IMG/VR virus record: IMGVR_UViG_3300008952_000052
Coordinates: 1 to 59,885 of that record
Reading direction: 5' to 3' (one strand)
DNA: 59,885 nucleotides
Source: a virus
Taxonomy: Duplodnaviria > Caudoviricetes
The notes under the pieces: model-generated
Database searches by the model: none
The model's input: only the letters and a program-made list of their open reading frames with translations
Told to the model about the DNA's origin: nothing
Program-made: the position numbers and the translations under genes
Part shown: positions 965 to 54,017 of the stretch, one piece after another
How the letters are laid out: each line of letters starts with the position of its first letter
Numbering within the stretch: the stretch's first letter is position 1

Positions 965-972
965 ATTCATTA

Positions 973-1011
973 TTTTCCTGTGGGAGAAAACCTGATTTGT
1001 ATGATTATTAG
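973..1011 (+). promoter_or_regulatory. putative phage early promoter, copy 1
   Basis: ttttcCTGTGggagaaaacctgatTTGTATgattattag; same boxes and 14-nt spacer as four other intergenic copies. Confidence 0.75.
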
Positions 1012-1146
1012 AAATGGAAATCACCTTGAGAAAGCTATGAAAAATTTCTCCACAATACTTGTGTCGGTGATTTAGAGGAAGCATTTGTTTTATTTTCTGC
1101 CTACAAGATAGGGGAAATCTTAAAACGGGGCTTCCTCTTCCATTTC
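1011..1146 (+). ncRNA. highly structured multi-branch RNA (sRNA or structured 5' leader), family unknown
   Basis: Nested helices 1011-1018/1139-1146, 1019-1025/1066-1072, 1028-1033/1045-1050, 1051-1055/1059-1063, 1074-1082/1130-1138, 1087-1092/1121-1126 and 1100-1103/1109-1112. It begins at the end of promoter copy 1. Confidence 0.7.
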
Positions 1147-1859: not shown

Positions 1860-1885
1860 TTCCGATCCTTTTAGGATCTATGGAG
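1860..1885 (+). promoter_or_regulatory. conserved SD-enclosing leader hairpin, copy 1
   Basis: ttcc-GATCCT-ttt-AGGATC-tat-ggag, 7 nt before ATG 1893. Confidence 0.7.
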
Positions 1886-2504: not shown

Positions 2505-3794
2505 ATGAGTACATCAAAAACTCACCTCACTTTCGCTCTTGAGAAAAAAGGGCAGAAGCCCTCTGATTATTTTCCTACTCGTTCCAGCCTTATGGCAACG
2601 AATTGCTGCATCTGCGGCAAGAAGTTGGAAAAAGCAGATAGTGTTCAACATATGATCGGCCCTGTGTGCCGTGAAAAGTACATACTGAACCCCATCGGGG
2701 GATTGGCAGTACCTTCTAAAACGGCTGCTTTGGATGCCTTTTGGGGTTTCATCGCTACTGCTGCTCTGGACAGCGACCTTGAAGATTACCTTTTCAGCAA
2801 CGAAGATAATTTCGCTATGCTTGCGGATATCTTGATTGCTTACGGAAGCATTGTCACTCACCAGAAAGGTGGGCATGAAAAGATCCTTATCCTTGCTCAA
2901 GCCCTTCGGGAAATCGGATATGGTCTTGTAGCTGATAGATTGGAAGAAGACAGATGCAGCATCAAGCTTTACCCAAGTGAGCGAATTGGGAAAGAAGATA
3001 CTCACTTCAAACTCTTCATCCCTCTGAAGTCTGAGTTGAGCGTTTCCCAACTTTACAAATTCGTTGGGAAATCTAAGGTTGAGTATTTTCAGCCTCAGAA
3101 AACTCGTCGTGGTTGTTATTGGGAAATTCCCAAAGCTTCATCTGTTGAGATGTTGTTCTCTCTTTCCCTTCAATATGGAAGAGAACGCTTCTTTCAGAAG
3201 GGTATGAAGACCATTCAAACGGTTCCCACATTTTCCTCTTTCGGAGATATGGAGCCTTGTCAGGAGTGGCTTGATGCTCACATACCTGCTGTAACCATTC
3301 AGCAAGTTGGTGAGAATGTAACAGTACACTCCCCTGCCCCTTGGTCTTCTACTCAGGCTGGTAACTTCTCTGCCTTTGTGAAGTCTTTCAAGTGGAAGTG
3401 GGCAAGAGGATATGGTCTGATTGTGGATCACTCCCACCTGAAGGCTATTGAGGCTAAAGCAAAGGCTCTCTTCGCATCTTATGATGTGAAGGTGGACATT
3501 GTATCCAAGCCTGTTGCCAAGCCTGTACAGACTGCTGCTGCTCCCACCGTGGCTACTGTCAAGGCTGGTACTGCTACCTTGGTCACCTTCACTAAGGAAG
3601 GCAAGAGAATCCGTATGAAGTCACCTGCCCCTTGGACTTGTCCTTCTGCTGGAGCCTTGGTAGCAACTGTCAAGGCAACCAGAGGTCGCAAGTATGATGG
3701 TAAGACTTATACTTGGACTTTCCCTGCTTCCAAATGGGATGCTATCAAGGAGAAGGCTGAAGAGGTCTACACTAACCAATGGGTTCTGGTATAG
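2505..3794 (+). CDS. DUF6011-like Zn-finger protein with two C-terminal HARP-like repeats (putative nucleic-acid-binding protein)
   Basis: Start re-assigned to ATG 2505 (GGAG SD). N-terminal CCICGKKL...S...IGPVC; duplicated SPAPW...VK module; last repeat VKATRGRKYDGKTYTWTFP. Confidence 0.75.
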   Translation: MSTSKTHLTFALEKKGQKPSDYFPTRSSLMATNCCICGKKLEKADSVQHMIGPVCREKYILNPIGGLAVPSKTAALDAFWGFIATAALDSDLEDYLFSNEDNFAMLADILIAYGSIVTHQKGGHEKILILAQALREIGYGLVADRLEEDRCSIKLYPSERIGKEDTHFKLFIPLKSELSVSQLYKFVGKSKVEYFQPQKTRRGCYWEIPKASSVEMLFSLSLQYGRERFFQKGMKTIQTVPTFSSFGDMEPCQEWLDAHIPAVTIQQVGENVTVHSPAPWSSTQAGNFSAFVKSFKWKWARGYGLIVDHSHLKAIEAKAKALFASYDVKVDIVSKPVAKPVQTAAAPTVATVKAGTATLVTFTKEGKRIRMKSPAPWTCPSAGALVATVKATRGRKYDGKTYTWTFPASKWDAIKEKAEEVYTNQWVLV

Positions 3795-3815
3795 GACTTG
3801 TTGCTGTATTTATTC

Positions 3816-3868: not shown

Positions 3869-4138
3869 ATGTCGAAAAACAAAGCCCGTTACCATAAGCG
3901 GAAAACGCTCTTTAACATTGCTGATGCACTGGTAAAAGACCAAGCCTGTAGGGATCTTCTAATGGCTCTACTGGCTCCCATCAAGGGATCTAACAACGGT
4001 GTTCTCACACCAGAGCAAGTGCTGCAATGCAATGCGGTTCGTACCGCACTCATTCACACCTTGAAAGAGGGATCTTCTGTAAATGGTTTTATGCCTGACA
4101 AAGCTCAGAATGAATTCTCTAAAACTTGGAGGGGATAA
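3869..4138 (+). CDS. hypothetical protein (89 aa)
   Basis: GGAG SD; TAATG overlap with next gene. Confidence 0.8.
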   Translation: MSKNKARYHKRKTLFNIADALVKDQACRDLLMALLAPIKGSNNGVLTPEQVLQCNAVRTALIHTLKEGSSVNGFMPDKAQNEFSKTWRG

Positions 4139-4326
4139 TGGTCAAAGAAATCTGGACTAAAAAAGAAGATGCTGAAGCTAAGAAATCCAAAGATGATTTT
4201 GAAAGAAGGCAAGCCGAATTGAAAGCAAAGTTAGGTCGTGATCTGACGAGAGATGAAACCCTTTCCTGTCTTGTAGAGGAATTGGATGCTTCTGAATTCA
4301 ACAAAGATTGGAGGAAATTCAAATGA
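4138..4326 (+). CDS. small charged helical protein (62 aa); source/target of the 35-nt inverted repeat
   Basis: Start re-assigned to ATG 4138 (GGAGG SD, TAATG overlap); ATGA overlap with next gene. Confidence 0.75.
   Translation: MVKEIWTKKEDAEAKKSKDDFERRQAELKAKLGRDLTRDETLSCLVEELDASEFNKDWRKFK
4212..4246 (+). repeat. 35-nt inverted repeat, copy A (inside CDS 4138-4326)
   Basis: agccgaattgaaagcaaagttaggtcgtgatctga equals the reverse complement of 7512-7546 at 34/35 positions. Confidence 0.95.
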
Positions 4327-5009
4327 GAAATGAAATCCAAAAGTATCTCTTCAGACCTGATCTCATAGATGAAGCAATGAAGAGAATACGAGAGCTAACC
4401 TTCTTCTTCAAAAAGCATACGGAGATCAAGGTAGCTATGGCTGACGGATCAGCCAAGGTCACCATCCAAGAGATAGAACAGGAGCCTGACTTCTGGATGC
4501 CTTTTGTGAAAACAAAAGATTTCTCACAATCTGAAGAAGGTTGGGGAGATGGTTTTCAGTATGCTTGGGCAAATAACAAATACCAAGTCTTCACCAAGAT
4601 CCTGTTTTATGAACATGGAGATATGATCTGGCTTAGTATCAAAACCCACGGCAGAGATAGCAACCTGCCTTGGAGAGATTTGCAGAGGATTAAGAATGAC
4701 CTGTGCGGTACTGACTGTACAGGAGTAGAGATTTACCCCTCTTCTGACTGTCTGGTGGACACCTCCAACCAATTCCACCTATGGGTAATGCGACCCGGTA
4801 TGCGTGTTCCCTTCGGCTATCAGACAAGGGATGTCTGCCTCACCCAAGAAGAATTCGTTAAAACCCTTGGAGGCAAGCCTGTAGGCTTGGGGAAACAAGA
4901 TCCCTTCAAGCCTCACCACAAAGATGATGGTCTACCAGCCGTGGGGCTGGCTTGGCTCCAATACGAGAAAGATCATCCTGACCGCTACGATTCAGAGAGT
5001 GAAGAATGA
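4323..5009 (+). CDS. conserved phage hypothetical protein (WxDLQRIKN...GVEIYP...VDxxNxxHLW signature)
   Basis: Start re-assigned to ATG 4323 (GGAGG SD, ATGA overlap). The signature is recalled from a widespread uncharacterised phage family. Confidence 0.85.
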   Translation: MRNEIQKYLFRPDLIDEAMKRIRELTFFFKKHTEIKVAMADGSAKVTIQEIEQEPDFWMPFVKTKDFSQSEEGWGDGFQYAWANNKYQVFTKILFYEHGDMIWLSIKTHGRDSNLPWRDLQRIKNDLCGTDCTGVEIYPSSDCLVDTSNQFHLWVMRPGMRVPFGYQTRDVCLTQEEFVKTLGGKPVGLGKQDPFKPHHKDDGLPAVGLAWLQYEKDHPDRYDSESEE

Positions 5010-5368
5010 GACTTACACCAAAAGAGAAAGAGGTGCTTAAACACCTCCACAACCAGCCTGTAATGCCTTCTCGGAGAGAACGTAGGCAACAGACAACCCA
5101 TTGGGTAGGAGCCATTAGAAGGGCTTTATACTCCCTTGAGCGCAAAGGTCTTGCCAAGCCTTTCAGTGACTATGAAGAGTTGAAATTACGACAAAAGGAT
5201 TGGTCTTACGGAAAAGATCGACCCTCCCTTGGTATTCTTCGTGAAAGGAAAATCTGGCATAACGGTACTTGGGTGAGCCAAGCAGAGGCTGAGAAGAACC
5301 CTGCCCAATTTGAATGGACACTTACCCCCGAAGGCTTGGAAGCCTACAATGAAAATTCTGGAGAATAA
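5006..5368 (+). CDS. putative winged-helix-like DNA-binding protein (120 aa)
   Basis: LTPKEKEVLKHL...IRRALYSLERKGL...WTLTPEGLEA matches a wHTH pattern with an inserted wing. Confidence 0.65.
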   Translation: MRLTPKEKEVLKHLHNQPVMPSRRERRQQTTHWVGAIRRALYSLERKGLAKPFSDYEELKLRQKDWSYGKDRPSLGILRERKIWHNGTWVSQAEAEKNPAQFEWTLTPEGLEAYNENSGE

Positions 5369-5369
5369 A

Positions 5370-5765
5370 ATGAAAATAGGTAAACACACATTCGGAAATG
5401 AAACTTTCTACTATGTGAAAAGAGAAGAAGAATGGGGTTGTGAATACTGGCAGTCAGGATTTTGGGATGATTTCTCAAAAATAGATCCCTCCAGTCTGAA
5501 AGACCCAACCTTTCTTCATCTTGTAAAAGACTTCTTTGGATTAACAGAAACTCCCTTAGCTGCCTCTGCTGACTGCACCGTAGAATTCTATGTTCGATCT
5601 GCATGCAAAGACCTGATGGAGTGTGGCTTCTTCAAAACCCCCCAAAGCTTCATTGCTGTAGACCACAGAACCTCTGCTGTTGGTGTCTGCTATCGGTTCT
5701 CAAGAGTGATCTACGGTGCAAAAGTAAGACACGACTATTCGTGGAAACCATCAACCAATAGGTGA
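5370..5765 (+). CDS. hypothetical protein (131 aa)
   Basis: Start re-assigned to ATG 5370 (GGAG SD, 1 nt after the upstream stop). Confidence 0.75.
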   Translation: MKIGKHTFGNETFYYVKREEEWGCEYWQSGFWDDFSKIDPSSLKDPTFLHLVKDFFGLTETPLAASADCTVEFYVRSACKDLMECGFFKTPQSFIAVDHRTSAVGVCYRFSRVIYGAKVRHDYSWKPSTNR

Positions 5766-6064
5766 AAACAATGTTTAATACTATCTGTTTGAATTCCATC
5801 TTTGAAGGTGGAGATAGAACCTACGAATCTTATGAAAGAGATCCTTGGACTATCGCTCAACTTCAAAAGTTAGCCCTTCTTCTGGATGGTTACCACAATT
5901 TTGATAAGCACCATCTTGAAAAAGAAATAGTCAGCATCCTTGGCTATCCCTATGAGGGAGGAGTGACGATCACGGCTCTTAACAAATACACAGGCAAACA
6001 AGTCACCTTCATAGGAGACTACCACTCAAACAAAACCCACATACAAGCAGGGGCTGCACAATGA
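5762..6064 (+). CDS. hypothetical protein (~100 aa)
   Basis: GTGA overlap; alternative ATG at 5771 with AGGTG SD. Confidence 0.75.
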   Translation: MKTMFNTICLNSIFEGGDRTYESYERDPWTIAQLQKLALLLDGYHNFDKHHLEKEIVSILGYPYEGGVTITALNKYTGKQVTFIGDYHSNKTHIQAGAAQ

Positions 6065-6309
6065 CCCTTCAAGAAAGAAATGAATATCTCTCCAGCGTTG
6101 GAGAGGTGCAGAGAGAAACCCCCTTATCTCAATCAGAGACAGATGCTATCGGTTCTCATTGGGATAGCCTGATAGAAATAATGCTGAAGAGAGGGGCAAG
6201 CTTCAGTGAAGAGGAGCAAAGAATGATCAAAAAGATAGATCGAATTCTGGAACCCTCAAAAGAAACCCAAAAGAAATGGGCTGCTGAATGCAAAGCCCTC
6301 AAAGGATAG
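6061..6309 (+). CDS. hypothetical protein (82 aa)
   Basis: ATGA overlap with upstream gene. Confidence 0.75.
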   Translation: MTLQERNEYLSSVGEVQRETPLSQSETDAIGSHWDSLIEIMLKRGASFSEEEQRMIKKIDRILEPSKETQKKWAAECKALKG

Positions 6310-6313
6310 AACA

Positions 6314-6694
6314 ATGCACATTCAAGACTGTACTGTTGGACAGAGAGTTGTCTTTGGTCGCCCCAATGGGCAGAAGACTGAGGGAACCATAGTCAAGGTC
6401 AATCGCAAGACCGTCAAGATTCGACAGGTAGGAGCCAGAGGAACCACCAAGGATCACAGTGTGGGTACAATGTGGACTTGCTCCCCTGCCCTTGTGACCC
6501 TCCTGACTGCCTCTGAGCGATCAGAGAGTGAGATCCTCAAGGATCTGGCAAGGGTCATCATCAAGATACAGATACCCAGCACCAGAGACACTGGGCTGAA
6601 CAGCTTGAGGATGAAAGCCTTCAAACTTAGAGCGGAACTAACCAGAGAGGTTCCTGACACTGAAATCTGGAACCTCATACTGAAAGGAATATAA
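6314..6694 (+). CDS. hypothetical protein with N-terminal SH3/KOW-like beta barrel
   Basis: VGQRVVF...EGTIVKVNRKTVKI...WTCSPALV pattern; AAGGA SD. Confidence 0.75.
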   Translation: MHIQDCTVGQRVVFGRPNGQKTEGTIVKVNRKTVKIRQVGARGTTKDHSVGTMWTCSPALVTLLTASERSESEILKDLARVIIKIQIPSTRDTGLNSLRMKAFKLRAELTREVPDTEIWNLILKGI

Positions 6695-6696
6695 CA

Positions 6697-7086
6697 ATGA
6701 CTTTTACAAAGAGAGAGCAGCAAGCTCTATATCACTTGCTCACATTGCAGCAACACATCGGAAGCCTACCCTCTTTTGAGAGTAGGCTTATCTCAGATCA
6801 TATCAGTCATGCTATCTTAGTAGACTTGGAAAGCAAAGAGTGCTTTGAAGATATGTTGAGCAATGATGGTAACCCTACAACCCTCAAGTCCTTGACTGTA
6901 CTTGGGATGGAAAACGCTATCCCCCACCACGCTCTTAACCGCTTTACCATTCCATTCTCTGAGACAGAGTGGGGGAAGCTAATGAGAGGCTTCCCAAATG
7001 AACAGTGTCTCATAGCTTGGATTCGTGAACAAGCAATTGAGAACAGTGAGAAAACAGTCTTTATACGAAATCGGGTGGAACAATGA
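6697..7086 (+). CDS. hypothetical protein (129 aa)
   Basis: AAGGA SD, 2 nt after the upstream stop. Confidence 0.75.
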   Translation: MTFTKREQQALYHLLTLQQHIGSLPSFESRLISDHISHAILVDLESKECFEDMLSNDGNPTTLKSLTVLGMENAIPHHALNRFTIPFSETEWGKLMRGFPNEQCLIAWIREQAIENSEKTVFIRNRVEQ

Positions 7087-7108
7087 GACTTTCTGTAGGA
7101 AAATCAGA

Positions 7109-7435
7109 TTATACTTTCTCAATCATATATTCTTTCACACCATAATTTGTTCCATTAAAAGAAACTGAGAGATTATTTGGTTTATCATAAGTAATTGTTC
7201 CAACAACACCCTTTCGATAAAAAGCCCCTAATTCTCTTGAATACTCATTAGAAAACTTAGTAGGTACTCTGTGCTTGTTGTATTCTTGCAATCCTTTCAA
7301 GGTGAGCATTACCTTATCCCCTTTTCTGAATGACGAACCAGCACTCTTAGTGACAAGTGGTAACAAATGCTCTCTTAATTCAGGCTTTTGGTGTGCAAGT
7401 CTGATAACTTTTGATCTTAATGATTTGTCTGACAT
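7109..7435 (-). CDS. lone reverse-strand protein with N-terminal LRSKVIRLAHQKPELREHLLPLV leader (candidate internal virion protein)
   Basis: Start re-assigned to ATG 7435 (GGAG SD); has its own candidate late-type promoter at 7479-7495. Confidence 0.75.
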   Translation of the reverse strand: MSDKSLRSKVIRLAHQKPELREHLLPLVTKSAGSSFRKGDKVMLTLKGLQEYNKHRVPTKFSNEYSRELGAFYRKGVVGTITYDKPNNLSVSFNGTNYGVKEYMIEKV

Positions 7436-7478
7436 TGTTTTTTCTCCAAAAATAAAAAGTTTTCTCAATAAGTGAACT

Positions 7479-7495
7479 GTATAAAATGATTATTG
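7479..7495 (-). promoter_or_regulatory. candidate late-type promoter (CRRTAR-N6-TATM)
   Basis: caATAAtcatttTATAc on the - strand, resembling motifs at 27275-27291 and 35124-35140. Confidence 0.35.
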
Positions 7496-7503
7496 TTTGG
7501 CTT

Positions 7504-7566
7504 TCAGGGTTTCAGGTCACGACCTAACTTTGCTTTCAATTCGGCTGGAAACGAAACTATCTCCAT
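7504..7566 (-). CDS. possible 20-aa mini-ORF MEIVSFPAELKAKLGRDLKP
   Basis: GAGG upstream of ATG; reads the inverted repeat in the same frame as CDS 4138-4326. It may not be translated. Confidence 0.3.
   Translation of the reverse strand: MEIVSFPAELKAKLGRDLKP
7512..7546 (-). repeat. 35-nt inverted repeat, copy B (intergenic; the + strand is antisense to the mRNA of CDS 4138-4326)
   Basis: tcaggtcacgacctaactttgctttcaattcggct; the single difference (G7516 opposite T4242) would be a G-U pair in RNA. Confidence 0.95.
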
Positions 7567-7591
7567 ACTCGTCCTCGCTCATAGGAGAATC

Positions 7592-7629
7592 TTTTCTGTG
7601 GGGTAAAACCTCACCTGTATAGGTATTAG
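7592..7629 (+). promoter_or_regulatory. putative phage early promoter, copy 4
   Basis: ttttCTGTGgggtaaaacctcacCTGTATaggtattag. Confidence 0.8.
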
Positions 7630-7649
7630 CCCACAACCAAGGAGTAAGC

Positions 7650-7796
7650 ATGGAAAACGTAAAAGTAAGATGGATCAACTTTACTGGTCAAGAACAGGAG
7701 CGCATGTTCACCGAAAAACATGCTGAGAAATTCATTGCAATGCTGAAAAGCACAGGCTTGCCTGTACTATCAAAAACCAAACTCAAGGAGCAATAA
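7650..7796 (+). CDS. small hypothetical protein (48 aa, MENVKVRWINFTGQEQERMF...), absent from the supplied ORF track
   Basis: AAGGAG SD, directly after promoter copy 4; TAATG overlap with next gene. Confidence 0.8.
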   Translation: MENVKVRWINFTGQEQERMFTEKHAEKFIAMLKSTGLPVLSKTKLKEQ

Positions 7797-8128
7797 TGAG
7801 TAAGACAGGAGCATGGGTGCTTGAAATTCAGGAACAAATGACTGAAGAAGAATGGCATCAACAAAATCAACAAAACGACTACAGCCCTCACGATTGGGCT
7901 ACAAGCCAGCCTGAGTGGGATGCCACTCTTGGGAGGGCTATATCCCTCATCAGACAGGCTCTGAGTGAACAGAAGGGGTTAGACACTCCCCTGTGGAAAG
8001 CCTTCTCCTATGCAGAGGAATTGGCTGTCTATGCCCTCTGTGAGCAGGAAAAGCCAACCTTGAAAAAGGCTTATTCCATCTTGGGATATCCAGAGGAAGA
8101 AACGGAAACCTCAGAAATTCCGTTTTAA
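7796..8128 (+). CDS. acidic hypothetical protein ending in EIPF
   Basis: AAGGAG SD; acidic C-terminal tail EEETETSEIPF resembling an SSB-type tail. Confidence 0.8.
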   Translation: MSKTGAWVLEIQEQMTEEEWHQQNQQNDYSPHDWATSQPEWDATLGRAISLIRQALSEQKGLDTPLWKAFSYAEELAVYALCEQEKPTLKKAYSILGYPEEETETSEIPF

Positions 8129-8236
8129 ATTTCTATCAACCTCCCCCTGTCACTGTATAGGGGGGATGTGAGAGGCAATCCGCTAATCACAAAATCAACA
8201 ATCTATCAGACTTATGTCTGTAAATAGGAGGAGCCT

Positions 8237-9781: not shown

Positions 9782-9790
9782 ATTCATCTT

Positions 9791-9829
9791 TTTTTCTGTG
9801 GGAGGTTTCCTGACCTGTATGAGTATTAG
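9791..9829 (+). promoter_or_regulatory. putative phage early promoter, copy 5
   Basis: tttttCTGTGggaggtttcctgacCTGTATgagtattag. Confidence 0.8.
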
Positions 9830-9870
9830 GAAGGAAACCTCCCTTCTTTTATTCCCCCTTTTATTTTCAA

Positions 9871-10672: not shown

Positions 10673-10706
10673 AAACCCCCCGATCCAATGGATCGGGGGT
10701 TTTTTT
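10673..10706. terminator. bidirectional intrinsic terminator between the early and structural units
   Basis: AAA-C-CCCCCGATCCA-A-TGGATCGGGGG-TTTTTTT between convergent genes. Confidence 0.85.
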
Positions 10707-52892: not shown

Positions 52893-54017
52893 CTAATAAG
52901 TATTATTGTTGGATACCAACTGTGCTGATCCCATTCTTGCTATGACTTTACCGTCTTGTAAGATACTACTCACAGTACTTGGGTTGCTATATAGTACTGT
53001 TACTTGCAGTCTCTGAGAACTGGCACTTTGAACTACCACATCAATAAGGAAAGTTGTTGGGTCTGTTGGGGAGGGGATTGTCTCAACGCTTAATATCCTG
53101 TAAAGCCTTTCTTTTAGAGTGAGCTTTTGATATTTCCCACTCATAGTCTGATACTCCTGTATCTGAGACAAAGCTCTCCTTACTTCAGCAGAGACTGCTG
53201 AAGAGACTGCTCCAAGAGCCTTTCTTCCAACCTTCTGCCTAAGACTTGTGCCATATCCTTTATAGAAAAGATTGGAGCCTCTATCTGTGAGCAAGATTTT
53301 CAAGCAACTTTGGTAGAGAAGATTCTCATTGTCTACAAATAAAAGCCCCCCATTAGGCCCGAATCTAAAGTCATTTTCTATTTCATTTGCTTGACACCTG
53401 CGGCATTGGTTTGGGTGTGTAAAATAAGAGAGCCTGAAAGAATGGTTGCTCTTTACGGTTTGTGAAAACTGTATCCCTCTTGTGAAAAAATATGTTTCTT
53501 CTTGATTAAGGCTCCATGAGGGGAAAACTTTTTTTCCTCTCGCCCCTGCCTGTAGGTCAAAGCCAATATGTGGAGCAGCTTTGCCCAAGACCTGAATAAT
53601 AGAACTTGAGCCATGTGTTGCAAGATCAGTCAGAGACAAAAATCCGTTGTTATTTTCAACCAAAAGACTTGTAGCCCTTTTCCGTATTTCTTTGACCAGA
53701 TCCTTAATTGACAAGCGGTTTTGAAAAGAAGAAGTTTTCAGCGTTAGCTCTATGTGATCTTCCGTAGAGGAAATTATAAGAGTGTTTTCATATTTGGGAA
53801 TAAAGAAGGGGCCAGCAATTCTGGATTTTATAGAAGCAGGGGTGTAAAGACCTCCTGACGGAATAACCATATCGTTTGCATAGAGGATTGTTCCTCTGGT
53901 TGGGCTGCTAAAGATAGGCTGTCTGGTTGAGATAGTCCTACCATCCCCACTCAAAGTAACTGCTTCTTCAATAGTTTGGTGGGGGCAGGAAAAAGCTAAT
54001 TGGATATCAAAAGACAT
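52893..54017 (-). CDS. baseplate protein with C-terminal gp25/gpW-like domain
   Basis: LLYQSCLKILLTDRGSNLFYKGYGTSL...ERLYRILSV; lies upstream of the baseplate J-like gene. Confidence 0.75.
   Translation of the reverse strand: MSFDIQLAFSCPHQTIEEAVTLSGDGRTISTRQPIFSSPTRGTILYANDMVIPSGGLYTPASIKSRIAGPFFIPKYENTLIISSTEDHIELTLKTSSFQNRLSIKDLVKEIRKRATSLLVENNNGFLSLTDLATHGSSSIIQVLGKAAPHIGFDLQAGARGKKVFPSWSLNQEETYFFTRGIQFSQTVKSNHSFRLSYFTHPNQCRRCQANEIENDFRFGPNGGLLFVDNENLLYQSCLKILLTDRGSNLFYKGYGTSLRQKVGRKALGAVSSAVSAEVRRALSQIQEYQTMSGKYQKLTLKERLYRILSVETIPSPTDPTTFLIDVVVQSASSQRLQVTVLYSNPSTVSSILQDGKVIARMGSAQLVSNNNTY

What the first reader, a model, noticed from the sequence alone, without database searches (positions are those of the whole stretch)
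7497..7595. Intergenic 35-nt antisense copy of another early gene: candidate trans-acting sRNA
Seen: 7512-7546 is the reverse complement of 4212-4246 (inside the 62-aa gene 4138-4326) at 34/35 positions, with 30 contiguous. Read on the + strand, the only difference (G7516 vs U4242) is a G-U wobble, so an RNA would pair over all 35 nt. The segment is bracketed by GTTTC(7509-7513)/GAAAC(7548-7552), which would display most of it as a loop. It is preceded by a CTGTAT box (7477) like the downstream box of the early promoters. It is followed by a TCTCC/GGAGA hairpin (7560-7588) and a T-run. Inference: a ~95-nt phage sRNA made from a captured gene fragment, silencing 4138-4326 and perhaps the translationally coupled genes behind it.
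Basis: partly seen in the sequence, partly recalled or inferred. Interest (0 to 1): 0.85.

Follow-up and report, generated by a model that had tools for sequence, protein, structure and literature searches.

The report
Inverted gene-fragment copy behind a split promoter
A 35-base piece of a small early phage gene really is repeated backwards in a non-coding gap 3.3 kb away, but the gap lacks the parts of a stand-alone small-RNA gene, so it is more likely a recent rearrangement scar that may or may not act as an antisense patch.

Summary
7512-7546 is the reverse complement of 4212-4246 at 34/35 positions and is by far the best inverted repeat in the window. It can be extended to 7506-7546 versus 4212-4262 with a 10-nt gap.

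Contigs from four marine metagenome runs of one study carry both copies, so it is not an assembly artefact.

The sRNA-gene anatomy is not supported:
- The CTGTAT box at 7477 is only the downstream half of the early promoter motif. The matching upstream half lies at 7090-7103. The two halves are separated by 365 nt that hold a reverse-oriented 108-aa gene.
- The hairpin is weak (-5.7 kcal/mol), and a natural variant breaks it.
- The T-run belongs to the next promoter.
- The + strand RNA folds no better than shuffles (z +0.59), and the minimum-energy fold does not show the loop display.

The target gene has no relative among 5.8 billion proteins, no close relative of the phage was found, and no RNA data exist.

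Best reading (0.45): a young inverted patch duplication in a rearrangement-prone early region of a huge-phage fragment. An antisense effect through longer + strand transcripts remains possible (about 0.25). A discrete sRNA is unlikely (about 0.1).

The parts
7512..7546 (+). 35-nt inverted copy of a gene fragment. It is antisense to the 4138-4326 mRNA when read on the + strand.
   Evidence: I1, 97%; E 2.7e-12. Contigs X1 record 8 and X4 record 32 carry it.
7506..7511 (+). Possible 6-nt extension of the copy. It matches the reverse complement of 4257-4262 across a 10-nt gap bounded by TCA/TCA.
   Evidence: One search shows a 9-nt exact match of 7506-7514 to 4262-4254; sequences read. By my estimate the chance of this is roughly 0.005-0.01, so it is suggestive only.
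4212..4262 (+). Source and target segment inside the 62-aa gene. The core is 4212-4246 (codons 26-36). The gene holds the longer form, which its reading frame constrains.
   Evidence: X4 record 26 spans 4146-4357 with no differences.
4138..4326 (+). 62-aa early gene with no known relative. It has a GGAGG ribosome site. Its start overlaps the previous stop and its stop overlaps the next start.
   Evidence: One search finds only itself among 5.8 billion proteins. No Pfam or PHROG match.
7090..7103 (+). Orphan upstream half of an early-promoter motif, 3 nt after the stop of gene 6697-7086.
   Evidence: one of only 3 exact matches to the upstream-half pattern; the other two lie in intact promoters. 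It aligns to the upstream half in A3.
7108..7472 (-). Inferred 365-nt insertion carrying the reverse-oriented 108-aa gene (7109-7435, ATG, GGAG site) and 37 nt upstream of it. The junction is ambiguous by a few bases.
   Evidence: ORF. Relatives P0002 (99%) and P0003 (77%), plus a shared N-terminal module. The best-scoring virtual removal is 365 nt (null 23 of 600).
7473..7484 (+). Orphan downstream half of the same promoter motif.
   Evidence: 1 mismatch to the downstream-half 12-mer, and one of 3 hits at 1 mismatch or fewer; the spacing to any TTCT element is wrong (21 or 41 nt against 26-28).
7560..7588 (+). Weak hairpin (5-bp stem) in front of the next promoter. It lies partly in a variable patch.
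   Evidence: -5.7 kcal/mol. Not listed. In X1 and X2 the variant has 7556 A>G, 7561 C>T, 7563 C>A and 3 bases missing at 7569-7572.
7588..7636 (+). Intact early-promoter copy (family D1) that drives the operon starting at 7650.
   Evidence: D1; A1; 55.0 bits.
7650..7796 (+). First gene of the downstream early operon (48 aa, AAGGAG site).

Best explanation
This is a genuine and evolutionarily young inverted duplication of a short internal piece of the 62-aa early gene 4138-4326. The core is 35 nt, or 41 nt if a 10-nt gap is allowed.

The copy sits in a non-coding spacer of about 95 nt between two tandem early promoters. The fragment comes from a huge (roughly 0.5 Mb) marine phage, and this early region is prone to rearrangement. 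The first of the two promoters was later split when a reverse-oriented 108-aa gene was inserted into it. That insertion left the CTGTAT box as an orphan half promoter.

The copy is most likely a by-product of illegitimate recombination or template switching. Rearrangements of this kind are described around repeated promoter/stem-loop cassettes of T4-like phages. It is not a dedicated sRNA gene. Any antisense action on the 62-aa gene would be incidental and would be carried by longer + strand transcripts that cross the spacer.

Shown here: the repeat, its uniqueness, its presence in independent contigs, the two half promoters and the inserted gene. Inferred: the order of events and the lack of selected function.
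For: Repeat and boundaries:
- The repeat is real and unique.
- Its boundaries are sharp. Flank similarity is no better than shuffles: left 71 of 500 and right 418 of 500 shuffles score at least as well.
- The target gene has no relative, which fits a recent, lineage-specific event.

Rearrangement-prone setting:
- The region holds five copies of a ~40-nt promoter motif, several followed by stem-loops.
- It also holds an orphan upstream half at 7090-7103 and an orphan downstream half at 7473-7484.
- These halves flank exactly the reverse gene plus its ribosome site. Virtual removal of 365 nt restores the 27-nt span seen in four intact copies (null 23 of 600).
- A hypervariable patch at 7556-7572 lies next to the copy in two of four runs.

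No sRNA-gene features:
- No complete promoter.
- No terminator-like site; the hairpin is weak and a natural variant breaks it.
- Fold z-score +0.59, with 141 of 200 shuffles folding at least as well.
- Opening energy 10.7 kcal/mol against a context mean of 13.0, and 9.6 against 10.2.
- No Rfam match.

Literature: degraded half promoter/stem-loop cassettes near indels are described for T4-like phages (PMC4122927; abstract and passages seen).
Against: - A near-perfect 35-nt antisense patch in a transcribed-strand spacer, about 20-35 nt downstream of a promoter-like box, is what a young antisense regulator would look like.
- The one substitution keeps pairing (G-U), although a random transition does so about half the time.
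- Phage genomes tend to lose useless DNA, yet the spacer persists. In the X1/X2 variant contig the copy is unchanged while the adjacent 17 nt are rearranged.
- The split-promoter inference is only moderately significant in the position-weight test (p about 0.04). The joined site scores 7.8 bits, against 34-47 bits for intact copies left out of the model.
- No mechanism for moving a 35-50-nt piece 3.3 kb in inverted orientation was demonstrated.
Confidence: 0.45

Rival explanations
1. Embedded antisense element. The copy is selected and acts as part of longer + strand early RNAs. These could be read-through from the 3869-7086 operon or a leader started at the residual half promoter.

It would pair over 35 bp (41 with a bulge) with the 62-aa gene's mRNA, either in trans or within the same 5-kb transcript. 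The duplex would be cut by a double-strand RNase such as RNase III. This would lower the 62-aa protein and uncouple the upstream and downstream parts of the operon.
For: - Duplex -62.2 kcal/mol and cofold gain -54.7 kcal/mol, against opening costs of about 10 kcal/mol on each side.
- No + strand terminator-like site between 4495 and 8504, so read-through across the copy is plausible.
- The orientation is antisense on the strand of all neighbouring early genes.
- The copy is unchanged next to a variable patch.
- A weak ProQ C-terminal-like match sits in the same operon (6314-6694, E 4.4e-4, below the Pfam cut-off).
Against: - No RNA data.
- No conservation test is possible.
- The target lies mid-ORF, not at a ribosome site.
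- Accessibility is average.
- About 500 nt of untranslated RNA before the copy could invite Rho termination (inference).
- Tolerance of the insertion that split the upstream promoter suggests transcription from it was dispensable.
Confidence: 0.25
2. Discrete trans-acting sRNA of about 95 nt. It would start after the CTGTAT box at 7477, end at the TCTCC/GGAGA hairpin and T-run, and silence 4138-4326.
For: - The downstream half box TGAACTGTATAA is a rare match: one of 3 hits at 1 mismatch or fewer, and the other two lie in intact promoters.
- CTGTAT boxes mark intergenic regions of the early cluster: about 7 of the 9 + strand occurrences below 10.7 kb, judged against my ORF map.
- Before the insertion, an intact promoter probably did fire into this spacer.
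Against: - The upstream promoter element is at the wrong distance: 21 or 41 nt, against 26-28 nt in the seven other sites matched.
- The contiguous site scores -25.4 bits, against 49.7-55.4 for intact copies.
- No terminator-like site. The hairpin is only -5.7 kcal/mol. The X1/X2 variant changes two stem bases, one to a mismatch, with no compensating change.
- The T-run is part of the next promoter.
- Fold z-score +0.59, and the proposed loop display is absent from the minimum-energy fold.
Confidence: 0.1
3. DNA-level role. The two 35-bp arms would serve one of two functions. They could be recombination sites for inverting the 3.3-kb segment 4247-7511. Alternatively they could be a pair of binding sites for a DNA-binding protein, since the copy holds a 12-bp palindrome, AGGTCGTGACCT on the minus strand, that is perfect only in the intergenic copy.
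For: - The inverted arms are 3265 nt apart.
- A homology of 30-35 bp is within the range used by phage single-strand annealing recombinases (general knowledge, recalled).
- The palindrome was read.
Against: - No joints of inverted type appear in the contigs of four runs, although contigs drop rare forms.
- Inversion would truncate the 62-aa gene and turn a whole early operon around (read).
- X4 record 26 and the overlapping stop/start codons fix the present orientation.
- No recombinase was seen among the proteins scanned, and only part of the window was scanned.
Confidence: 0.07
4. Sense copy in the 5' leader of the reverse 108-aa gene. A minus-strand transcript starting to the right of 7546 would carry the same 35-nt RNA as the 62-aa gene's mRNA. 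One RNA-binding regulator could then control both, or the leader could soak up the + strand antisense RNA.
For: - The inserted segment has only 37 nt upstream of its ATG, so its promoter must lie further right, beyond or within the copy.
- The gene is real.
Against: - No promoter-like site on the minus strand in 7436-7650.
- The minus-strand RNA 7436-7600 is no more structured than shuffles: z -0.03, with 89 of 200 shuffles folding at least as well.
- The in-frame 20-codon minus-strand mini-ORF (ATG 7566-7564) is turned into ATG-stop in the X1/X2 variant.
Confidence: 0.05
5. Assembly artefact, or a CRISPR-like solitary spacer.
For: - A length of 35 nt is in the range of CRISPR spacers (recalled).
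- Huge phages can carry CRISPR arrays (recalled).
- De Bruijn contigs break at the shared 30-mer.
Against: - Separate contigs from four runs cross each copy with unique flanks.
- The 62-aa ORF reads through its copy and is translationally coupled on both sides.
- No direct repeats flank the 35-mer.
- No CRISPR repeat family, or any other Rfam family, matches even at E up to 10.
Confidence: 0.02

Closest known systems
Promoter-early stem-loop cassettes (PeSLs) of T4-like phages and the indels around them (PMC2839356, search listing only; PMC4122927, abstract and passages)
   Same: - A repeated early-promoter motif with adjacent stem-loops sits between small genes, many without recognised families, in a plastic early region.
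- Degraded half copies lie next to an indel. Here these are the halves at 7090-7103 and 7473-7484 around a 365-nt insertion.
   Different: - The motif here is not sigma-70-like (one search finds none at these sites).
- The phage is only distantly related to T4: the baseplate wedge matches PHROG 6, and the best record is a 485-kb uncultured phage at 38% identity.
- PeSL papers describe swaps of whole ORFs, not a 35-nt inverted gene fragment.
- Recombination at these sites was not shown here.
c4 antisense RNA of phages P1/P7 (as summarised in PMC12197685, passages seen)
   Same: A phage RNA encoded away from its target would pair with a phage mRNA of the same early or immunity region through complementary stretches.
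   Different: As that review describes c4:
- Its complementary sequences target the region around the ribosome binding site of the ant mRNA.
- They are thought to sit in RNA loops, and c4 function depends on its secondary structure.

Here there is one long, perfect mid-ORF match with no loop display and no defined RNA.
Cis-encoded phage antisense RNAs that act with RNase III, such as lambda OOP (PMC12197685, passages seen)
   Same: A long, perfect duplex with an mRNA would be a substrate for a double-strand RNase.
   Different: OOP overlaps its target locus. Here the complementary piece is an ectopic copy 3.3 kb away, and no own promoter or terminator could be shown.
Birth of plant microRNA genes by inverted duplication of target-gene fragments (recalled; no call)
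   Same: A regulator-like antisense sequence arises from an inverted copy of its own future target. Near-perfect complementarity marks its youth.
   Different: The domain of life and the processing machinery differ. No evidence here shows that the copy is processed or used.

Membership tests
Stand-alone trans-acting bacterial/phage sRNA gene | Own complete promoter | tested here: not met
   Only the downstream half box is present. The TTCT...YTGTAT span is 21 or 41 nt, against 26-28 nt in the seven other sites matched. The contiguous site scores -25.4 bits, against 49.7-55.4 for intact copies.
Stand-alone trans-acting bacterial/phage sRNA gene | Intrinsic terminator (stable GC-rich hairpin plus U-run) | tested here: not met
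   No + strand terminator-like site between 4495 and 8504. The hairpin is -5.7 kcal/mol. The X1/X2 variant breaks the stem. The T-run is part of the next promoter.
Stand-alone trans-acting bacterial/phage sRNA gene | Stable or conserved secondary structure | tested here: not met
   z +0.59, with 141 of 200 shuffles folding at least as well. No Rfam family matches. Conservation is not testable because no relatives were found.
Stand-alone trans-acting bacterial/phage sRNA gene | Transcript of defined size detected | not testable with these tools
   No RNA run holds the stretch, and the contigs laid are DNA.
Antisense RNA regulator (any form) | Extended complementarity to an mRNA of the same genome, on the transcribed strand | tested here: met
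   34/35 plus a G-U pair. Duplex -62.2 kcal/mol. The neighbouring early genes are all on the + strand except the inserted one.
Antisense RNA regulator (any form) | Complementarity maintained in relatives (covariation) | not testable with these tools
   No relative carries either site: viral contigs, metagenome contigs (best 49% on a neighbouring gene), genome contigs and proteins.
PeSL-like promoter/stem-loop cassette region | Repeated early-promoter motif in intergenic positions of a region of small, poorly conserved genes | tested here: met
   Five copies, with 4 of 5 hit by the upstream-half pattern against 0.10 expected. Most neighbouring genes lack families.
PeSL-like promoter/stem-loop cassette region | Stem-loop attached to the promoter | tested here: inconclusive
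   Strong stem-loops follow the boxes at 1808, 2420, 3804 and 9815 (read). None follows 7615. No statistical test was done.
PeSL-like promoter/stem-loop cassette region | Half or degraded copies at indel junctions | tested here: met
   Halves at 7090-7103 and 7473-7484 flank a 365-nt insertion. The permutation-type test gives 23 of 600.
PeSL-like promoter/stem-loop cassette region | Sigma-70-type -35/-10 boxes as in T4-like PeSLs | tested here: not met
   The sigma-70 scan lists none of these sites.
CRISPR mini-array or solitary spacer | Spacer flanked by a direct repeat (at least one recognisable CRISPR repeat) | tested here: not met
   No flanking direct repeats. No CRISPR-DR family matches at E up to 10.
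Invertible DNA segment | Both orientations present in the population | tested here: inconclusive
   No joints appear in the contigs of 4 runs, but contigs drop rare variants.
Invertible DNA segment | Site-specific recombinase nearby | not tested
   Only selected ORFs were scanned, and the record is about 11% of the genome.

The most novel reading that the evidence does not exclude
A snapshot of regulatory-RNA birth in a phage. An inverted copy of a 35-50-nt piece of an early gene landed just downstream of an early promoter and created, in one step, an antisense RNA against that gene. It would work through a 35-41-bp duplex and double-strand RNase cleavage, in trans or as a long-range intramolecular pairing that loops out 3.3 kb of the operon transcript. 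This would parallel, in bacterial viruses, the inverted-duplication route proposed for young plant microRNAs.
Probability: 0.15. Interest if true: 0.7.

Novelty: new variant of a known kind. Interest (0 to 1): 0.35.

Why it matters
If the copy is used, it would be a rare case of a phage regulator made directly from a fragment of its own target. It would also show that trans-encoded antisense RNAs with long perfect matches exist in huge phages, whose early gene control is almost unknown.

If it is only a scar, it still documents how an early region of a huge marine phage is remodelled. A gene was inserted into the middle of a promoter, short patches of sequence were moved and inverted, and a hypervariable patch lies beside them.

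Either way, the repeated promoter motif and the split copy give a handle on the early transcription signals of an uncultured phage lineage.

Tried and rejected
Relatives, all negative or too distant:
- Exact 29-mer of the copy in viral contigs: none.
- Degenerate promoter pattern in viral contigs: none.
- Protein-seeded scans in viral contigs: 4323-5009, none; 6314-6694, one weak short hit; 52893-54017, none; 6697-7086, none; 7796-8128, none.
- Scans seeded with the 108-aa protein gave only proteins sharing its N-terminal module: viral contigs, 26 loci, and genome contigs, 2 loci.
- Metagenome contigs with the DUF5131 neighbour: 80 loci kept, best 49% identity, none syntenic enough to use.
- Phage database by DNA: no match.

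RNA evidence: no RNA holder is listed among the runs. This is no evidence either way.

Rejected readings:
- Rfam: nothing at gathering score. At E up to 10 there are 4 chance-level hits in 7380-7700.
- CRISPR-like reading: no flanking repeats.
- Small ORFs in the spacer. The + strand ORFs 7493-7606 and 7497-7622 start with TTG and have no ribosome site. The minus-strand 20-codon ORF that shares the copied residues becomes ATG-stop in the X1/X2 variant.
- Extended homology of the flanks: none beyond the 6-nt extension.
- Other intergenic antisense copies in the window: none. The other 22 inverted pairs are 18-25 nt at 78-89%.
- Protein Atlas for the 108-aa protein: best score 0.79, unnamed viral clusters, no lead.
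- Upstream regions of homologues of the 108-aa gene in 26 viral loci share no motif with this locus.

Correction: a first position-weight model was mis-anchored for one promoter copy and was redone. Only one search is used.

Full report
1. THE OBSERVATION

Reading both sites confirms that 7512-7546 is the reverse complement of 4212-4246 at 34 of 35 positions. Thirty of these are contiguous (7517-7546). The one difference (G7516, T4242) gives a G-U pair between the two + strand RNAs.

The repeat finder ranks this pair first among 23 inverted pairs. The other 22 are 18-25 nt at 78-89%. blastn-short within the window gives E 2.7e-12. It is therefore true homology, not chance.

One addition: 7506-7514 equals the reverse complement of 4254-4262. 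The homology can thus be read as 7506-7546 against 4212-4262, 40 of 41 identical, with 10 nt missing on the intergenic side between two TCA triplets. A 10-nt indel cannot sit in a reading frame, so the gene is the likely source and the intergenic piece the derived copy (inference). Beyond that, the flanks are no more alike than shuffles: left 71 of 500 and right 418 of 500 shuffles score at least as well.

2. WHAT THE WINDOW IS

The window is a whole IMG/VR virus record of 59,885 bases. It is linear and estimated to be 11% complete.

- Positions 10.7-59.9 kb carry minus-strand genes. These include baseplate wedge proteins and ORFs of 1155-2954 aa without Pfam matches.
- The best database relative is a 485-kb uncultured phage. 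It matches at 38% identity over 98% of the baseplate wedge protein. The window is therefore a fragment of a huge phage.
- Four marine-metagenome runs of one study hold the stretch.
- Positions 1-10.6 kb carry tightly packed small + strand genes, most without families.
- The 62-aa gene 4138-4326 has a GGAGG site. Its start overlaps the previous stop and its stop overlaps the next start. It has no relative among 5.8 billion proteins other than itself.

3. THE PROMOTER MOTIF

Five intergenic copies of a ~40-nt motif (family D1, at 970, 1781, 2393, 7588 and 9788) were found.

- The upstream-half pattern hits four of them, against 0.10 expected by chance.
- A position-weight model gives 49.7-55.4 bits to the five copies and 34.3-47.3 when each is left out. 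The next best site in the window scores 15.3.
- The motif has two conserved blocks, TTTCTGTGGG and CCTGTAT. The span from TTCT to the end of YTGTAT is 27 nt in four copies. It is 26 and 28 nt in two diverged sites in front of genes 3869 and 8237.
- These sites do not fit the sigma-70 scan.
- Several are followed by strong stem-loops.
- They start 0-20 nt after the preceding stop codon (read).

This resembles the promoter/stem-loop cassettes of T4-like phages. Those cassettes are associated with indels and with degraded half copies (PMC4122927, abstract and passages; PMC2839356, listing only).

4. ANATOMY OF 7087-7649

In fact a minus-strand gene, 7109-7435 (ATG, GGAG site, 108 aa), lies directly to its left.

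The gene is real:
- It has a 99% variant and a 77% relative.
- Its first ~33 residues are a near-invariant module. All 16 aligned proteins share it, although most have unrelated C-termini.
- 26 viral loci also carry the module.

The CTGTAT box at 7477 matches the downstream half of the motif (TGAACTGTATAA, 1 mismatch). It is one of only 3 hits at 1 mismatch or fewer, and the other two lie in intact copies. It has no upstream block at the right distance: the spans are 21 and 41 nt. As a contiguous site it scores -25.4 bits.

The missing upstream block is at 7090-7103, 3 nt after the stop of gene 6697-7086. It is one of only 3 exact hits to the upstream-half pattern, and the other two lie in intact copies. 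I chose that pattern after seeing the site, so it is somewhat post hoc.

Removing 365 nt, namely the reverse gene plus 37 nt upstream of it, restores the canonical register. This is the best-scoring removal among all those tried. However, it reaches only 7.8 bits, and 23 of 600 random places do as well.

I conclude, with moderate confidence (about 0.7), that the 108-aa gene was inserted into an early promoter. Before that event, two promoters stood about 138 nt apart, with the copy in the ~95-nt spacer between them.

5. TESTS OF THE sRNA-GENE MODEL

- Promoter: only a half (section 4).
- Terminator: none in the scan between 4495 and 8504 on the + strand. The TCTCC/GGAGA hairpin is worth -5.7 kcal/mol. 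The T-run is the 5' end of the next promoter motif, present in all five copies.
- Structure: 7490-7600 folds at -18.6 kcal/mol against -20.4 +/- 3.1 for shuffles (z +0.59). In that fold 7505-7532 forms an internal hairpin, and the GTTTC/GAAAC closure does not appear.
- Accessibility: opening the 35 nt costs 10.7 kcal/mol (context mean 13.0, range 7.0-19.4). Opening the target costs 9.6 (mean 10.2, range 6.3-15.6). Both are ordinary.
- Pairing itself would be strong: -62.2 kcal/mol for the 35-mers and a cofold gain of -54.7.

6. POPULATION DATA

Contigs of four runs (one study, possibly including the source sample) were laid on 3900-7900.

- Both copies are present with their unique flanks. X4 record 26 covers 4146-4357, X4 record 32 covers 7499-7783, and X1 record 8 covers 7486-7900.
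- Contigs tend to end at the shared 30-mer, as expected for a k=31 graph.
- No inverted joints were seen.
- A variant in X1 and X2 differs only in 7556-7572, by three substitutions and three missing bases. It changes two bases of the TCTCC stem, one to a mismatch, with no compensation. It also turns the second codon of a minus-strand 20-codon ORF (ATG 7566-7564) into a stop. That ORF shares the copied residues.
- The copy itself is unchanged. The remaining ~390 nt of that contig are also unchanged, so this says little.

7. OTHER READINGS CHECKED

- CRISPR-like spacer: no flanking repeats, no repeat family.
- Artefact: excluded by bridging contigs and by the intact, coupled ORF.
- Inversion substrate: possible in principle, but not seen, and it would be disruptive.
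- Sense leader of the 108-aa gene: possible, because the insertion brought only 37 nt of upstream sequence. No promoter or structure supports it.

8. VERDICT

The repeat is real, unique and young. The spacer lacks the parts of a stand-alone sRNA gene, and its former promoter has been split.

I put:
- 0.45 on a non-selected rearrangement scar in a plastic early region;
- 0.25 on a selected antisense element carried by longer + strand RNAs, either read-through (no terminator-like site lies between 4495 and 8504) or residual initiation;
- 0.10 on the discrete sRNA;
- the remainder on DNA-level or sense-leader roles.

Neither expression nor conservation could be tested. No RNA run was listed, and every search for relatives came back empty or too distant.

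9. COMPARISON WITH KNOWN SYSTEMS

If the copy works, it would work like phage antisense RNAs that act by base pairing and double-strand RNase cleavage. Examples are OOP, and c4 for action away from its own locus (review PMC12197685, passages). It fails the tested membership features of a stand-alone sRNA gene.

Its setting matches promoter/stem-loop cassette regions of T4-like phages in three of four tested features.

The inverted-duplication origin recalls the model for young plant microRNAs (recalled; no call).

Noticed in passing
window 970-1018, 1781-1829, 2393-2441, 7588-7636, 9788-9836; diverged sites near 3784-3809 and 8131-8158: A family of ~40-nt early-promoter-like motifs that does not fit sigma-70. 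It has two conserved blocks at a fixed 27-nt span. Several copies are followed by G-rich/C-rich stem-loops. Other contigs in runs X1-X3 share only 7592-7629, so further copies exist elsewhere in the sample.
   Followed up: partly
window 1860-1885, 2143-2168, about 2473-2498: A hairpin just before the ribosome site is repeated in front of three early genes (starts 1893, 2174, 2505). The third copy keeps the stem through changes on both arms (GATCC/GGATC against GACCT/AGGTC). It is a candidate translational operator.
   Followed up: no
window 7109-7435 (minus strand): The 108-aa protein starts with a ~33-residue module that is nearly invariant in 16 of 16 aligned proteins, most with unrelated C-termini. 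The module occurs several times in single large viral contigs. It may be a targeting or propeptide module of a huge-phage lineage. No Pfam or PHROG match.
   Followed up: partly
window 7556-7572: Hypervariable patch. In runs X1 and X2, one contig differs from the window by three substitutions and three missing bases within 17 nt. It is otherwise identical over about 400 nt.
   Followed up: partly
window 6314-6694: This 126-aa protein has a weak match to the Pfam phage ProQ C-terminal-like domain (E 4.4e-4, 21.3 bits, below the cut-off of 27) and to PHROG 2251. It may be an RNA-chaperone-related protein in the same operon as the target gene.
   Followed up: no
window 4190-4225, 4944-4978, 7842-7878: Contigs in the runs share only these ~35-nt stretches with the window and have unrelated flanks. 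7842-7878 appears in two runs with the same flanks. These could be chance matches at 85% likeness, or further short shared patches.
   Followed up: no
window 10677-10699: A perfect 10-bp GC-rich hairpin with T-runs on both strands sits between the + strand early cluster and the minus-strand late cluster. It looks like a bidirectional terminator.
   Followed up: no
window 11537-47819 (minus strand): Six ORFs of 1155-2954 aa in a row. The five that were scanned against Pfam had no match (the 2954-aa ORF was not scanned). They lie next to baseplate genes. The closest record is a 485-kb uncultured phage.
   Followed up: partly
window 7597-7611 / 7621-7635: The intact promoter copy in front of gene 7650 contains its own 15-nt inverted repeat (87%) that spans the CTGTAT box. 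I did not notice one on reading the other copies; this was not tested.
   Followed up: no
window 7115-7123 and 7461-7469: A 9-nt direct repeat (TTTCTCAAT) lies near both ends of the inferred 365-nt insertion. By my estimate the chance is about 0.25, so it is probably not meaningful.
   Followed up: no
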